Origin: an uncultured Candidatus Saccharibacteria bacterium
GTDB lineage: Bacteria > Patescibacteriota > Minisyncoccia > Phycocordibacterales > UBA9973
Direction: 5' to 3'
DNA: 50,403 nt
Assembly (NCBI GenBank): GCA_964401625.1
Contig: CAYNYY010000003.1
Coordinates: 1 to 50,403 of the forward strand
Shown piece after piece: positions 18,982 through 39,951 of the stretch. A program made the translations under genes and the position numbers. The notes below the pieces were generated by a model that made no database searches, was not told the DNA's origin, and saw nothing but the letters and a program-made list of their open reading frames with translations. Every line of letters begins with the position of its first letter. The stretch's first letter is position 1.

Positions 18982-20127
18982 ATGCAAAATAAAAATCAAA
19001 CAGTTTTTGTTGGAATTTCTGGAGGAGTTGATTCTGCTGTTTCAGCCGCTATTTTAAAAAAACAAGGGTATAAAGTTGTTGGAGTTTTTATTCGTACATG
19101 GACACCAGATTTTATGGAATGTACATGGCGAGATGAACGTCGGGATGCAATGCGAGTTTGTGCTCATCTTGATATTCCATTTCTTGAATGTGATGCCGAA
19201 ATTGCTTATAAAAAAAAGGTGGCTGATTATATGATTGAAGAATATAAAAAAGGGAATACTCCTAACCCTGATGTAATGTGTAATAGAGAAATAAAATTTG
19301 GGATTTTTGGGAATTTTGCTAAAAAAAATGGCGCTGATTTTATAGCTACAGGGCATTATGCTTGTATAAAAGAGAATAGTTTTAGAGAAGTGACGGGTGG
19401 GGGCGTGCCATTTCGAGGTAATCCGAGGAATGGGGTTAAGGAACTTCGAGAAAAGCTATTCTCTTTAAAGCGCAATCAAGATCCATCTAAAGATCAGTCG
19501 TATTTTTTATGGACTCTTACCCAGAAAGATTTAGGGCATACACTTTTCCCTATAGGTCATTTAATGAAGAAGGAAGTTAGAAAATTAGCAAAAGAATATA
19601 AAATTCCAGTGGCTACTAAAAAAGATAGCCAAGGAGTTTGTTTTCTCGGTAAACTTGATATGAAAGATTTTTTAAAACATTATATTAAACCTAAAAAAGG
19701 AAAAGTCCTGAACGAAAAAGGAGAAATAATTGGATATCATCAAGGTGTAGTATTTTTCACATTAGGAGAAAGACATGGTTTTATTATTACTAAAAATTCT
19801 GATGAGGATAAGCCTCTTTATGTTATTTCAAAAAATATAAAAAATAATACAATTATAGTTTCTCCTATGTTAAAATTAGAAACACAAAAAAAAATTAATA
19901 AAATTATTATATGCAATAATGTAAATTGGATTTTTGATCTACCAAAAGAAAATAAAATTTATACTGGGCAAATTCGTTACCATGGAGAACTTTTATTTTG
20001 CAAAATAAAAGTTCTCCAAAACAAAAAATTCCAAATAATTTTTAAAAAAAATGTTTTAGCTGATAAGGGACAGTCTATAGTTATTTATGATGGAAATGTT
20101 TGTTTAGGTGGTGGTATTGTGCAATAA
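18982..20127 (+). CDS. mnmA: tRNA 2-thiouridine(34) synthase MnmA, carrying a ~20-aa insertion
   Basis: It has the PP-loop GISGGVDSAV, catalytic Cys contexts NPDVMCN and GVCFLG, and KDQSYFLW. Confidence 0.92.
   Translation: MQNKNQTVFVGISGGVDSAVSAAILKKQGYKVVGVFIRTWTPDFMECTWRDERRDAMRVCAHLDIPFLECDAEIAYKKKVADYMIEEYKKGNTPNPDVMCNREIKFGIFGNFAKKNGADFIATGHYACIKENSFREVTGGGVPFRGNPRNGVKELREKLFSLKRNQDPSKDQSYFLWTLTQKDLGHTLFPIGHLMKKEVRKLAKEYKIPVATKKDSQGVCFLGKLDMKDFLKHYIKPKKGKVLNEKGEIIGYHQGVVFFTLGERHGFIITKNSDEDKPLYVISKNIKNNTIIVSPMLKLETQKKINKIIICNNVNWIFDLPKENKIYTGQIRYHGELLFCKIKVLQNKKFQIIFKKNVLADKGQSIVIYDGNVCLGGGIVQ
19369..19466. repeat. Inverted-repeat-flanked GC-rich segment inside mnmA, in frame
   Basis: AAAGAGAATAG (19369-19379) is the perfect reverse complement of CTATTCTCTTT (19456-19466). 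The enclosed core at 19390-19450 is about 57% GC by hand count, set in a gene of roughly 25-30% GC. Confidence 0.55.
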
Positions 20128-20140
20128 TATGTATATGAAC

Positions 20141-20382
20141 TCAGACAAAACCCAGCAAGGCTGGTAACATTATGAAACATAATTTATTTTTATCTAGTAA
20201 TGGAACATAAATCTGATTATGAAAGAGAAACAATTTCCCTTCTAAGAAGTTACCAAAATTATTGATATAAATAACAAAAAGAAATGGTTTATTGTGAAAA
20301 GTGTTATCAAAAAGAAGTTTATTAATCTTTATGGATGGTGCTTGAAATTCAAAAAACATATTTTTTTTCATAAACTCTCTAA
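20141..20382 (-). pseudogene. aspS-derived gene fragment; the 76-aa ORF opens with an exact copy of an internal aspS segment
   Basis: Positions 20331-20382 are the exact reverse complement of 39053-39104, inside aspS. The ORF begins MKKNMFFEFQAPSI, identical to AspRS residues in the motif-1 region, and then diverges. Confidence 0.5.
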
Positions 20383-20388
20383 CCGATT

Positions 20389-20475
20389 TTCTGCTATCGC
20401 ATATTTTCGGTAAAATGGAATCTAACTCTTTTTACGCTATCGCGTGTTTTAGGTAAATAAATTCTAAATTATCAA
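20389..20475. repeat. Two degenerate tandem repeat units centred on GCTATCGC
   Basis: Unit 1 is CTGCTATCGCATATTTTCGGTAAAATGGAATCTAA and unit 2 is ACGCTATCGCGTGTTTTAGGTAAATAAATTCTAA. Their cores are at 20393-20400 and 20436-20443, spaced 43 nt apart. Confidence 0.6.
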
Positions 20476-20511
20476 CATGACACTTTTGTGCTATAGCACA
20501 AAAGTGTCATG
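20476..20511. repeat. Perfect 36-bp palindrome: hairpin, bidirectional terminator or operator
   Basis: CATGACACTTTTGTGCTATAGCACAAAAGTGTCATG is fully self-complementary, with a GCTATAGC core related to the two upstream units. It lies 66 nt upstream of the alaS ATG. Confidence 0.7.
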
Positions 20512-20542
20512 TATCTAAATTTATTAAATTATTAAAAAAGTT

Positions 20543-20570
20543 TTGATGTTTTATTCTTTTAGTATATTAT
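20543..20570 (+). promoter_or_regulatory. Possible alaS promoter, TTGATG-16-TATTAT, implying a leaderless mRNA
   Basis: TTGATG is at 20543-20548 and TATTAT at 20565-20570, and the ATG at 20578 is only 7 nt after the -10 box. Confidence 0.35.
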
Positions 20571-20577
20571 AAGAAAT

Positions 20578-22323
20578 ATGTTATCTAATGAAATAAGATT
20601 AAGATTTTTAAAATTTTTTAAAAAAAGAAGACATGAAATTATTCCATCTTCTTCCTTAATTCCTCAGAATGATTCCTCTGTACTTTTCAATACAGCCGGA
20701 ATGCAACCCTTAGTCCCATATTTTTTAGGACAGAAACACCCTATGGGTGTTAGGTTGGTAAATTCTCAAAAATGTGTTCGAACTAATGATATAAATGAAG
20801 TTGGAGATAATAGGCATCTTACTTTTTTTGAAATGCTTGGTAATTGGTCAATGGGAGATTATTTTAAAAAGGAAGCAATTGCTTGGAGCTTTGATTTTTT
20901 AACTGATAAAGAAGAAGGGTTAGGTCTTAATAAAGATAGACTTTATATAACTGTTTTTGAAGGAGATGAAAACGTGGGAAAAGATATAGAAGCAGTTAAT
21001 TTTTGGAAAAAATATATTCCAGAAAATCGTATTTATTTATTACCAGCAAAAAATAATTGGTGGGGTGTTGGGGAAGATGGACCTTGTGGTCCTGATACAG
21101 AAATGTTTTATGACTCAAACAAAGAACCCCTTGGAGATATGACTCTTGAGGAGTTTATGAAAGCTGATAATGAGGGAAAAGTTATAGAAATTTGGAATAA
21201 TGTATTTATGCAATATGAAAAAGAAGAAGGAAAAATAATTGGTAAATTAGCCCAGCATAATGTAGATACAGGAATGGGTTTAGAAAGAATCGCGATGGTT
21301 TCGCAAGGAGTAAATACTGTTTTTGATACAGATTTATTCATACCAATTATTTCTAAAATAAAAGAGTTATCTTTTGTTAAAAACGAAAGAATAGAAAGAA
21401 TAATTGCTGACCATATAAGGACAGCTGTTTTTATGATTACTGATGGAGTGGTTTTAAGTAATACTGGCCGAGGTTATATCCTAAGAAGATTACTTCGTCG
21501 TATTATTAGATTTTCAAATGAAATAAGCTTACAAAGTGGTTCTTTTGAAAAAATTATAGATATCATTGTTGATAAATATAAAAAACCTTATCCAGAACTT
21601 GAGAAAAATATAGATAATATAAAAAGAGAAATAAATAATGAAGAAAAAAAATTTAAGCAAACACTAGAAAAAGGGTTAAGGGAATTTGAAAAAGGAGTTG
21701 ATCCGTTTATTTTATTTACTACTTATGGTTTTCCAATTGAATTAACTCTAGAGTTAGCAACAGAAGGAAAAATTAAAATAGATTTAGAAGATTTTAATAA
21801 AAAGATGAAAGAGCATCAAGATCTTTCTAAAGTTTCTTCAGTTGGAATGTTTAAAGGGGGACTTGCTGATCATAGTGAAAAAACTATTAAACTTCATACG
21901 GCGCATCACTTACTTTTAGCAGGAATTCAGGCTATTATAGGATCGGAAGTAAAACAGCGGGGAAGTAATATTACCGAAGAACGTTTACGGATAGATTTTC
22001 TTTGTAATCATAAATTAAGTAATGATGAAAAGAAAAAAATTGAAGATTGGGTAAATGATAAAATAAAAAAAGAACTCAAAGTTGTTCATCAAGAAATGCC
22101 ATTAGAAGAAGCTATAAAAATTGGGGCTCAAATGGAATTTGGAACAAAATATCCAGAGGTTGTTTCTATTTATTTTATTGAGGATGAAGGTGGACATATA
22201 TTCTCAAAAGAATTTTGTGCTGGTCCTCATGTTAAAAATACGAAAGTGCTAGGTCATTTTAAGATTAAAAAAGAAGAATCTGTGGCATTTGGTATTCGTA
22301 GAATTAAAGCAATATTAGAATAA
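20578..22323 (+). CDS. alaS: Alanyl-tRNA synthetase, short form without the C-Ala domain
   Basis: The N-terminus (FLKFFKKRRHEIIPSSSLIP...VLFNTAGMQP) and GLERIAMV mark the catalytic core. The editing-domain metal motifs HTAHHLL and CAGPHV are present. The protein ends at 581 aa. Confidence 0.92.
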   Translation: MLSNEIRLRFLKFFKKRRHEIIPSSSLIPQNDSSVLFNTAGMQPLVPYFLGQKHPMGVRLVNSQKCVRTNDINEVGDNRHLTFFEMLGNWSMGDYFKKEAIAWSFDFLTDKEEGLGLNKDRLYITVFEGDENVGKDIEAVNFWKKYIPENRIYLLPAKNNWWGVGEDGPCGPDTEMFYDSNKEPLGDMTLEEFMKADNEGKVIEIWNNVFMQYEKEEGKIIGKLAQHNVDTGMGLERIAMVSQGVNTVFDTDLFIPIISKIKELSFVKNERIERIIADHIRTAVFMITDGVVLSNTGRGYILRRLLRRIIRFSNEISLQSGSFEKIIDIIVDKYKKPYPELEKNIDNIKREINNEEKKFKQTLEKGLREFEKGVDPFILFTTYGFPIELTLELATEGKIKIDLEDFNKKMKEHQDLSKVSSVGMFKGGLADHSEKTIKLHTAHHLLLAGIQAIIGSEVKQRGSNITEERLRIDFLCNHKLSNDEKKKIEDWVNDKIKKELKVVHQEMPLEEAIKIGAQMEFGTKYPEVVSIYFIEDEGGHIFSKEFCAGPHVKNTKVLGHFKIKKEESVAFGIRRIKAILE

Positions 22324-38601: not shown

Positions 38602-39951
38602 ATGATAAATCGTACTTATATTAAAGACTTAAAAAATTTCATTGGATCAACTGTAACTGTCGCTGGTTGGGTTAATGTTCGCAGAGATCAAGGAAAACTT
38701 GTATTTATAGATATGAGAGATATGACTGGAATAATTCAGTGTGTCGTCTTACCGAATCATAAAGAAGCAATGGAAATGATTAAAGAAGCTAGGAATGAAT
38801 GGGTTTTAAAGATAGAAGGTATTGTAAATAAGCGTCCTGATAAAAATATAAAAAAAGATATTCTAAATGGAGATATTGAACTTGAAATAACAAAAGTGGG
38901 AATTTTGGCTACAGCAGCTGCCTTACCGTTTGATTTGTCTTTAGATGGATATAATTTAGAATTAACCACGGAGCTTGATCATAGAGCTTTAGTTCTAAGA
39001 CAACCTAAAATACAAGCTATTTTCAAAGTTCAAGAAACAGTCATTGATTCTTTTAGAGAGTTTATGAAAAAAAATATGTTTTTTGAATTTCAAGCACCAT
39101 CCATTACTCCAGCCACTGCTGAAGGAGGGGCTGAAGTTTTTGAAATCAATTATTTTGATAAAAAAGCTTATCTATCACAATCACCTCAACTTTATAAACA
39201 AATAGTTATGTCAGCTTTTGAAAGGTGTTTTTCTGTTAATAAAGTTTTTCGGGCTGAGCCATCATCAACCACAAGACACTTAACTGAAATAGTTTCATTA
39301 GACGCAGAAATGAGTTTTGTTGACTCTTGGAAAGAAATTCGTGATATGGCAGAAAAAACCGTTAAGTATATTTTAGAACAAGTTAGAATAAGAAATATTC
39401 AGCACTTAAAATTATTAAATGTTGAATTACCAGTAATGATAGATAAAACGCCTACTTTATCTTTGAGAGAAGTTCAACAAAAAATTTTCGAAAAATTTGG
39501 ACGTGATGTTCGTGGAGAGAAAGATATGAATCCTCAAGATGAAAGGGAAATTGGTCAAATAATAAAAGAAGAAACGGGTTCCGATTTTGTATTTATTTAT
39601 GGTTACCCTACTAAACAAAAACCATTTTATGTTTATCCAAATCCAGAAGAACCAGAATATAATGAAGGTATAGATTTACTTTGTCGTGGAATAGAGTGGC
39701 TTTCTGGGGGGAGAAGAATAAATGATTATAATCAACTTAAGGATCATATTAAAATATGGGGAATGGATTCTAATAAAATTAAAATGTTTCTTGAAGCATT
39801 TAAATATGGAGTTGCACCAGAAGGAGGTTTTGCTTTTGGAGCAGAGCGTATTACCATGCAATTATTAGGATTAAAAAATATTCGTGAAGCTTCTATGTTT
39901 CCAAGAGATATGAATAGAATAGATGAAAGATTAACAGATGAGGGTTATTAA
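38602..39951 (+). CDS. aspS: Aspartyl-tRNA synthetase, archaeal/eukaryal-type class IIb
   Basis: It has an OB fold at the N-terminus, QSPQLYKQ, motif 2 (FRAEPSSTTRHLTE) and motif 3 (GGFAFGAERITMQLLGLKNIREASMFPRD). The protein is 449 aa. Confidence 0.88.
   Translation: MINRTYIKDLKNFIGSTVTVAGWVNVRRDQGKLVFIDMRDMTGIIQCVVLPNHKEAMEMIKEARNEWVLKIEGIVNKRPDKNIKKDILNGDIELEITKVGILATAAALPFDLSLDGYNLELTTELDHRALVLRQPKIQAIFKVQETVIDSFREFMKKNMFFEFQAPSITPATAEGGAEVFEINYFDKKAYLSQSPQLYKQIVMSAFERCFSVNKVFRAEPSSTTRHLTEIVSLDAEMSFVDSWKEIRDMAEKTVKYILEQVRIRNIQHLKLLNVELPVMIDKTPTLSLREVQQKIFEKFGRDVRGEKDMNPQDEREIGQIIKEETGSDFVFIYGYPTKQKPFYVYPNPEEPEYNEGIDLLCRGIEWLSGGRRINDYNQLKDHIKIWGMDSNKIKMFLEAFKYGVAPEGGFAFGAERITMQLLGLKNIREASMFPRDMNRIDERLTDEGY
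39053..39104 (+). repeat. aspS-internal partner of the 52-bp exact inverted repeat
   Basis: TTAGAGAGTTTATGAAAAAAAATATGTTTTTTGAATTTCAAGCACCATCCAT is the reverse complement of 20331-20382, checked base by base. Confidence 0.9.

What the first reader, a model, noticed from the sequence alone, without database searches (positions are those of the whole stretch)
20141..20382. Exact 52-bp inverted copy of an internal aspS segment sits 18.7 kb away in the mnmA-alaS spacer
Positions 20331-20382 are the perfect reverse complement of 39053-39104 (checked base by base), and identity stops abruptly at both ends. A 52-nt exact match is not expected by chance, even in AT-rich DNA. There are three non-exclusive readings:
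- It is a relic of an aspS rearrangement. The 76-aa minus-strand ORF starts with the AspRS peptide MKKNMFFEFQAPSI. Its tail (HNKPFLFVIY...FLEGKLFLF) only faintly recalls the AspRS region KQKPFYVYP...YNEGIDLL.
- It is a trans-encoded antisense RNA. If the segment is transcribed on the plus strand, the RNA carries 52 nt of perfect complementarity to aspS mRNA. A weak extended -10 (TGATATAAA, 20263-20271) lies upstream, and the perfect hairpin at 20476-20511 could terminate it.
- It is a substrate for homologous inversion of the 18.7-kb block between the copies, which would split aspS.
The sharp boundaries, with perfect identity next to unrelated flanks, argue for recent copying or gene conversion rather than old decay.
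Basis: partly seen in the sequence, partly recalled or inferred. Interest (0 to 1): 0.62.

Follow-up and report, generated by a model that had tools for sequence, protein, structure and literature searches.

The report
aspS snippet pasted into hairpin repeat
A 51-base piece of the aspartyl-tRNA synthetase gene has been copied, in reverse orientation, into a small hairpin repeat inside the remains of a dead gene; this is most likely a recent repair or replication scar with no function.

Summary
Positions 20331-20382 are the exact reverse complement of 39053-39104 (aspS codons 151-168), with a chance expectation of about 3e-19. Independent k=31 unitigs from three hydrothermal-vent metagenome runs cross both junctions at single-copy depth, so this is not an assembly artefact.

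The context changes the interpretation. The mnmA-alaS spacer is the gutted remnant of a ~580-aa zinc-finger paralog. It keeps the paralog's upstream module and first 6 codons, its last 16 codons and stop, and its downstream hairpin repeats. The aspS piece is a clean 51-nt insertion, with a 1-nt ambiguity, between TTTA and CCGA in the 5' arm of one hairpin ("U1"). Nine other U1 copies in the genome are uninterrupted at that exact point.

The 76-aa minus-strand ORF is antisense to the relic and matches AspRS only over the 14 copied residues, so it is spurious. No relative has a second aspS patch, and no other patch of this kind exists in this 536-kb Paceibacteria genome. The genome has no detectable Ku, Cas1 or reverse transcriptase; RecA and a RAYT-like Y1 transposase are present.

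My best reading is a recent, one-off, non-homologous templated insertion (template switch or Ku-independent end joining) at a hairpin, and neutral. An antisense role and inversion remain untested and unlikely.

The parts
20331..20382 (+). aspS-derived patch: the reverse complement of aspS codons 151-168. The inserted DNA is 51 nt (20332-20382 or 20331-20381; one A is ambiguous).
   Evidence: a 51-column gap in all other repeat copies; junction unitigs
39053..39104 (+). Donor segment inside the intact aspS gene (38602-39951). It lies in the class II motif-1 region, FREFMKKNMFFEFQAPSI.
   Evidence: Relatives' aspS genes carry the same segment at 88-90% DNA identity.
20143..20216 (+). 5' module of the zinc-finger paralog family. 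It has a double hairpin (CCAGCaagGCTGG, ATTATGaaaCATAAT) with a T-run, then ATG and 6 codons (MEHKSD). It is repeated at C1, C6 and C13 and continues into the intact C15 gene.
   Evidence: (loose ends)
20275..20325 (+). Relic of the last 16 codons plus stop (QKEMVYCEKCYQKEVY*) of a ~580-aa CxxC-x17-CxxC / treble-clef zinc-finger paralog
20326..20414 (+). Hairpin repeat U1 (CTTTACCGA-ttttc-TGCtatcGCA-tatt-TTCGGTAAAG), split after TTTA by the patch. The outer stem is cut from 8 to 5 bp.
20415..20450 (+). Second hairpin of the same GCTATMGC-apex family (U3). The U2 unit present in other cassettes is missing here.
20476..20511 (.). Perfect 36-nt palindrome with a GCTATAGC apex
   Evidence: I13; -19 kcal/mol, z -9.5
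20141..20371 (-). 76-aa ORF, judged spurious. It consists of 14 codons copied from aspS followed by the antisense of the pseudogene relic.
18982..20127 (+). mnmA, the upstream neighbour
20578..22323 (+). alaS, the downstream neighbour. A promoter-like site lies at 20543-20570.

Best explanation
The mnmA-alaS spacer of this Paceibacteria genome is the decayed shell of a zinc-finger paralog gene, together with that gene's downstream hairpin repeats. Recently, 51 nt copied from the organism's own intact aspS gene, 18.7 kb away and in opposite orientation, were inserted into the 5' arm of the first hairpin. There was no flanking homology, no target duplication, and at most 1 nt of junction microhomology.

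The mechanism is inferred, not shown. I propose a break or a stalled replication fork at the hairpin, repaired either by a short excursion of the polymerase onto the aspS template (template switch) or by Ku-independent end joining that captured a fragment as filler. The patch is a neutral scar. The 76-aa ORF is an accident of it. The patch leaves 52 bp of inverted homology that could recombine only at the cost of destroying aspS.
For: - The patch is real and fixed in three samples.
- It is a precise insertion. Nine other U1 copies read TTTA|CCGA without interruption. The alignment shows a clean 51-column gap in C9, C14, C16 and C18.
- The flanks are a pseudogene relic and dispersed repeats.
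- The relic flanks differ by 7-15% from their closest copy, C9, whereas the patch is 52/52 identical to aspS. The insertion is therefore younger than the relic.
- The donor is native aspS sequence and is conserved at the same position in relatives.
- The event is unique: no other copy of a gene interior in intergenic DNA exists in the genome.
- It is absent from 40 relatives. Most relatives checked have a ~165-aa gene in this spacer, so the site has undergone gene loss.
- No Ku, Cas1 or RT was detected; RecA is present.
- The insertion weakens the hairpin from -6.7 to -4.4 kcal/mol.
- Ku-independent end joining in bacteria is described in the literature (Chayot 2010, as cited in PMC6054270).
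Against: - No direct evidence distinguishes template switching from end joining. One nucleotide of microhomology is weak support for either.
- An 18.7-kb inter-locus template switch is long for a same-fork event.
- No RNA data exist, so a function cannot be excluded.
- The patch is carried by two strain variants. The X2 population has SNPs at 38900, 38970 and 39114 in aspS and still has the patch. It is therefore not brand new and could conceivably be maintained.
Confidence: 0.7

Rival explanations
1. Trans-encoded antisense regulator. Plus-strand transcription through the spacer, either read-through from mnmA or the relic's own upstream module, would yield an RNA with 52 nt of perfect complementarity to aspS mRNA. 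That would couple AspRS expression to the mnmA/alaS transcript.
For: - The orientation is right: mnmA, the relic and alaS are all on the plus strand, and the patch's plus strand is antisense to aspS.
- The patch is fixed in three samples and two strain variants.
- The spacer folds well (z -6.2), although this is mainly due to the palindrome.
Against: - No patch in any of 40 relatives.
- The target is mid-CDS, not the ribosome-binding site.
- There is no enriched promoter signal.
- The double hairpin with T-run at 20150-20190 looks like a terminator that lies ahead of the patch.
- No Rfam family matches and no RNA runs exist.
- The patch sits in a decaying pseudogene.
Confidence: 0.07
2. Capture by a single-strand DNA HUH/Y1 enzyme. 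The genome's RAYT-like transposase, or a related activity acting on hairpin repeats, cut the U1 hairpin and pasted in an off-target single-stranded aspS fragment.
For: - The insertion has no target-site duplication and lies in a hairpin arm, as with IS200/IS605-type integration.
- A Y1_Tnp protein flanked by REP-like palindromes is present (C20), with 26 REP copies.
- One REP abuts a U1 copy in C2.
Against: - The 51-nt piece has no terminal hairpins (z -1.2).
- It is not repeated elsewhere.
- U1 differs from the RAYT-flanking REP.
- The putative cleavage contexts (GTAA / CTAA / TTTA) are not identical.
Confidence: 0.08
3. Remnant of an older aspS duplication or rearrangement, with the identity of the 52-nt core maintained by gene conversion.
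For: The 76-aa ORF begins with 14 AspRS residues.
Against: - Both flanks belong to another repeat unit that is contiguous elsewhere.
- There is no AspRS similarity beyond the 14 residues (second HSP E 0.53, to the wrong region).
- aspS itself is intact and single-copy.
Confidence: 0.04
4. Assembly or amplification chimera.
For: - The assembly is a k=55 de Bruijn assembly (55-nt contig-end overlaps).
- The region is rich in repeats, and many contigs break in them.
Against: - Independent k=31 unitigs from three runs cross both junctions at single-copy depth.
- The 52-mer is at twice single-copy depth.
Confidence: 0.02
5. Functional invertible segment: the two copies mediate a programmed 18.7-kb inversion.
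For: 52 bp of perfect inverted homology, with RecA present.
Against: - Inversion would split the single essential aspS after codon 168.
- There is no invertase context.
- The k=55 contig shows one configuration (inference).
- This cannot be tested with k=31 unitigs.
Confidence: 0.02

Closest known systems
Templated (filler) insertions at repaired breaks or stalled forks: Ku-independent alternative end joining in E. coli (Chayot et al. 2010, as cited in PMC6054270) and replication template switching (e.g. PMC7954356, PMC8794818)
   Same: A short stretch identical to an ectopic genomic donor. The donor is left intact, the copy is in inverted orientation, the junctions have 0-1 nt of microhomology, and the site is a hairpin or quasi-palindrome in non-essential DNA.
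   Different: The donor is 18.7 kb away, whereas most described template switches are local (tens to hundreds of bases). No experimental system exists for CPR bacteria. The repair pathway is unknown in a genome with no Ku detected.
REP / BIME elements and RAYT (Y1 HUH) transposases (PMC2817692, PMC3479197, PMC3116915)
   Same: The recipient is one of several families of dispersed extragenic hairpins lying just after stop codons. A RAYT-like gene flanked by its own palindromes is present in the genome. The insertion has no target duplication.
   Different: The inserted DNA is not a REP or REPIN but a unique coding fragment. U1 is not the palindrome that flanks the RAYT gene.
Trans-encoded antisense small RNAs
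   Same: There is potential for a 52-nt perfect duplex with an mRNA transcribed from another locus.
   Different: No promoter, no defined ends, no conservation and no expression data. The complementarity is far longer and more perfect than in evolved trans-sRNAs, and it targets the middle of the coding region.
Ectopic CRISPR spacer integration
   Same: A host-derived piece of about 50 nt inserted next to a palindromic repeat. One locus (C2) has two U1 copies 51 nt apart.
   Different: No Cas1 was detected in the genome. There is no repeat duplication, and the insertion lies inside the repeat rather than at its edge.

Membership tests
Templated/filler insertion (non-homologous repair or template switch) | The inserted sequence is identical to an ectopic donor that remains intact | tested here: met
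   52/52 identity to aspS, which is intact and full length
Templated/filler insertion (non-homologous repair or template switch) | Empty-site copies show the flanks contiguous, with no loss or duplication of recipient bases beyond microhomology | tested here: met
   Nine uninterrupted U1 copies; a 51-column gap; a 1-nt (A) ambiguity
Templated/filler insertion (non-homologous repair or template switch) | No flanking homology between donor and recipient | tested here: met
   Identity stops at both ends
Templated/filler insertion (non-homologous repair or template switch) | A break or fork stall at the site, with an identified repair pathway | not testable with these tools
   Indirect only: hairpin site, no Ku detected, RecA present
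Trans-encoded antisense sRNA | Own promoter and terminator that define a discrete transcript | tested here: inconclusive
   No promoter-like site upstream on the plus strand in the scan. TGNTATAAW is common. The hairpins downstream lack a T-run.
Trans-encoded antisense sRNA | Expression | not testable with these tools
   No RNA runs hold this organism
Trans-encoded antisense sRNA | Conservation of the complementary segment in relatives | tested here: not met
   Five of the 40 relatives match this segment, each once. The three matches checked lie in that genome's own aspS.
IS200/IS605- or REPIN-type Y1 transposition | The mobile piece carries subterminal hairpins and occurs in several copies | tested here: not met
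   The patch folds weakly (z -1.2). Only the donor and one copy exist.
IS200/IS605- or REPIN-type Y1 transposition | Y1 transposase present; insertion without target duplication | tested here: met
   PF01797 hit on C20; no duplication
CRISPR spacer acquisition (ectopic) | Cas1 integrase present, and the repeat duplicated on both sides of the new spacer | tested here: not met
   No Cas1 detected. Only 5 nt of the repeat lie to the left of the patch.
AspRS pseudogene | Similarity to AspRS extending beyond the exact patch | tested here: not met
   BLASTP finds only residues 1-14. The flanks belong to the zinc-finger paralog.

The most novel reading that the evidence does not exclude
The patch is not junk. 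Transcription through the dead-gene spacer, which is the leader region ahead of alaS, would make an RNA with a 52-nt perfect antisense to aspS mRNA. This would be a newborn cross-regulator between two aminoacyl-tRNA synthetase genes, created in one step by a templated insertion. Alternatively, hairpin repeats in CPR genomes may systematically capture host-gene fragments through a single-strand DNA enzyme.
Probability: 0.07. Interest if true: 0.7.

Novelty: new member of a known kind. Interest (0 to 1): 0.27.

Why it matters
This is a clean natural example of a short ectopic templated insertion. The donor, the recipient and nine empty sites are all visible in one 536-kb genome where no Ku, Cas1 or reverse transcriptase was detected. 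It therefore bears on how ultra-reduced CPR bacteria repair breaks and generate small rearrangements. It also shows how a trans-antisense sequence, or a spurious ORF with a real protein's N-terminus, can arise in a single step. For annotation, the 76-aa ORF should not be called a gene, and the mnmA-alaS spacer should be read as a pseudogene relic with hairpin repeats. Beyond that it is a one-off scar.

Tried and rejected
- **Rfam and tRNA scans of the window:** nothing found.
- **AspRS relic idea:** rejected, because the ORF tail is the antisense of a zinc-finger paralog relic.
- **CRISPR-like reading:** two U1 copies lie 51 nt apart in C2. Rejected because no Cas1 was detected, there are no arrays, and the insertion lies inside the repeat.
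- **NHEJ by Ku and retro-insertion by RT:** neither gene family was detected in the genome.
- **Other gene-interior patches in the genome:** none. The remaining hits are REP copies that overlap over-extended ORF starts.
- **The same locus in other public assemblies:** an exact 30-mer of the locus-specific left flank found no match in metagenome contigs or genome contigs.
- **RNA runs:** none available.
- **Inversion junctions:** not testable, because only k=31 unitigs are available and the repeat is 52 nt.
- **Synteny in relatives:** informative on gene content, but AlaRS is at most 71% identical, so intergenic DNA cannot be aligned.

Full report
**1.

The repeat finder reports arms 20331-20382 and 39053-39104 as a 52-nt, 100% complementary inverted pair, 18,670 nt apart. 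It is the only long perfect repeat in the window. With the window's composition (per-base match probability 0.29), the expected number of such pairs is 3.4e-19.

The distal arm lies inside a 449-aa ORF, 38602-39951. This ORF is a non-discriminating aspartate-tRNA(Asn) ligase (NF003483, E 3.5e-136; Pfam tRNA-synt_2 plus the OB anticodon domain). The arm covers codons 151-168, FREFMKKNMFFEFQAPSI. The neighbours of the proximal arm are mnmA (18982-20127) and a short alaS (20578-22323).

**2. It is not an assembly artefact**

The genome (G000) has 536 kb in 29 contigs and is rated 98% complete. An earlier follow-up note assigns it to Paceibacteria. It was assembled with k=55, as many contig ends overlap by exactly 55 nt, so a 52-nt repeat can be bridged.

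Independent Logan k=31 unitigs from three hydrothermal-vent metagenome runs support the patch. X3 duplicates X2.

| Run | Left junction 20302-20360 | Right junction 20353-20504 | Single-copy depth | 52-mer unitig |
|---|---|---|---|---|
| X1 | 8.4 | 6 | ~11 | 18.6 |
| X2 | 33.9 | 26.9 | ~32 | 63.9 |
| X4 | 3.1 | 4.4 | ~3.7 | not separate (inside the left-junction unitig, 20302-20382) |

In X1 and X2 the shared 52-mer sits at roughly twice single-copy depth.

The X2 population differs from the window at 38900, 38970 and 39114 in aspS and still carries the patch. The patch is therefore fixed across at least two strain variants.

**3. What the flanks are**

A search of the organism's own genome with the 450-nt spacer showed that it is a mosaic of dispersed repeats.

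- Positions 20143-20216 match C1, C6 and the ends of C1 and C13. This unit is a double hairpin with a T-run followed by ATG GAA CAT AAA TCT GA. In other copies it continues as …AAAGAGAATATGTCAAAACTGTCAGAAAGA, which is the first sequence of contig C15.
- C15, C14 and C8 encode ~575-586-aa proteins with treble-clef / CxxC-x17-CxxC zinc fingers (PF23477, PF13451 and TIGR04272, all weak hits). Their C-termini read …YCEKCYQKEV(Y/V)* in C15, …YCEKCYQQEVY* in C14 and …YCEKCYQKEIY* in C8.
- Positions 20275-20325 encode QKEMVYCEKCYQKEVY*, the last 16 codons of such a gene.

The spacer therefore holds the 5' and 3' ends of a paralog whose interior has been deleted.

In six of the eight relatives examined, a ~165-aa gene lies between mnmA and alaS. 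G007 has that gene behind a zinc-finger paralog in place of mnmA, and in G001 mnmA and alaS are adjacent. This site has a history of gene loss.

**4. The patch is a precise insertion into a hairpin repeat**

Six bases after the relic's stop codon begins a hairpin, "U1": CTTTACCGA-ttttc-TGCtatcGCA-tatt-TTCGGTAAAG. Nine other copies (C2 twice, C5, C9, C12, C14, C16, C18, C27) read TTTA|CCGA without interruption.

An alignment of the window copy with C9, C14, C16 and C18 shows a clean 51-column gap exactly where the aspS sequence sits. The aspS sequence aligns only inside that gap. One A could belong to either side. There is no target duplication and no flanking homology.

The insertion shortens the outer stem from 8 to 5 bp, changing the fold energy from -6.7 to -4.4 kcal/mol.

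The closest empty copy, C9, is itself a degenerate tail with U1. It differs from the window flanks by 7-15%. The patch, in contrast, is 52/52 identical to aspS. The insertion is therefore much younger than the relic. No change in 52 neutral sites bounds its age to less than about 6% divergence (my arithmetic).

**5. Direction and uniqueness**

The segment is native aspS. Relatives with 77-79% identical AspRS carry it at the same position at 88-90% DNA identity. The few relatives that match this segment each show a single match. The three matches checked lie in that genome's own aspS, and none shows a second copy.

A genome-wide self-comparison found no other exact copy of a gene interior in intergenic DNA. 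The remaining hits are REP palindromes that overlap over-called ORF starts.

**6. The 76-aa ORF**

BLASTP against AspRS aligns only residues 1-14. The rest of the ORF is the antisense of the zinc-finger relic and its upstream module. The ORF is a by-product of the insertion.

**7. Mechanism (inference)**

The genome shows no detectable Ku, Cas1 or reverse transcriptase. RecA is present. The features to explain are:

- an intact donor;
- inverted orientation;
- at most 1 nt of microhomology;
- no target duplication;
- a hairpin as the recipient;
- a non-essential, decaying context.

These fit a templated or filler insertion. It could have arisen when a stalled or broken replication intermediate at the hairpin copied about 50 nt from another template. 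It could also have arisen by Ku-independent end joining, which is described for E. coli and invoked for indels in bacterial pseudogenes (PMC6054270). I cannot separate the two.

A third possibility is capture by a single-strand DNA Y1 enzyme. It is raised by a RAYT-like gene (PF01797, E 6e-8) on C20, flanked by ATGCGCAAGAACSGTTCTTGCGCAT palindromes, of which 26 copies exist. However, the aspS piece has no end hairpins and is not repeated.

**8. Function**

mnmA, the relic and alaS are all on the plus strand. Any read-through RNA would therefore carry a 52-nt perfect antisense to aspS mRNA. That is a fact of orientation, not evidence of regulation.

- The scan finds no promoter-like site upstream of the patch on the plus strand.
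- A terminator-like double hairpin precedes the patch.
- No Rfam family matches.
- No RNA-seq run holds this organism.

Inversion between the copies is possible in principle, but it would cut aspS after codon 168. The assembly shows one configuration. k=31 unitigs cannot test for minor isoforms.

**9. Verdict**

The feature is real and correctly described, but it is best read as a recent, one-off templated insertion into a hairpin repeat within a pseudogene relic. It is ordinary in kind and unusually clean as an example. The antisense and Y1-capture readings are kept open at low probability.

Noticed in passing
G000 contig C20:7560-8480 (outside the window); palindrome copies on 15 contigs: A REP/RAYT-like system in a 536-kb CPR genome. 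A 220-aa Y1_Tnp protein (PF01797, E 6e-8) is flanked on both sides by pairs of ATGCGCAAGAAC(C/G)GTTCTTGCGCAT, with 26 copies genome-wide.
   Followed up: partly
window 20389-20511, and about 25 intergenic sites in G000 (e.g. C17:7210-7520, C16:731-850, C8:21500-21581): A family of hairpins with variable outer stems but a constant GCTAT(C/A)GC apex: 41 occurrences against about 8 expected. On the opposite strand the C form reads GCGATAGC, which fits the GCGNNAGC 'mini-hairpin DNA' motif named in the abstract of PMC13037366. The hairpins often form 2-3-hairpin cassettes directly after the stop codon of zinc-finger paralogs.
   Followed up: partly
G000 C8:5529-7250, C14:14414-16174, C15:3-1739; tandem arrays in relatives (e.g. 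G022:C1:36246-41461): A multi-copy family of ~580-aa proteins with N- and C-terminal treble-clef (CxxC-x17-CxxC) zinc fingers and Cys-rich repeats. Its function is unknown. The 3' ends and downstream hairpins are kept near-identical between copies, which suggests concerted evolution.
   Followed up: partly
G000 C6:36940-37060 (locus L024): The upstream module and first codons of the zinc-finger paralog (MVESKSENKICQNCKKDF) appear fused in frame to the start of the next gene downstream, which looks like a Mur ligase. This may be a 5' module capture.
   Followed up: no
window 20128-20577 compared with loci L025-L032: Most relatives checked have a ~165-aa membrane-protein gene between mnmA and alaS. 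This genome has lost it, and G001 has mnmA and alaS adjacent.
   Followed up: partly
window 20128 and 20142: The strain in run X2 carries small indels (+AA, +GG) just after the mnmA stop codon, plus three SNPs in aspS. At least two strain variants therefore coexist across the vent samples.
   Followed up: no
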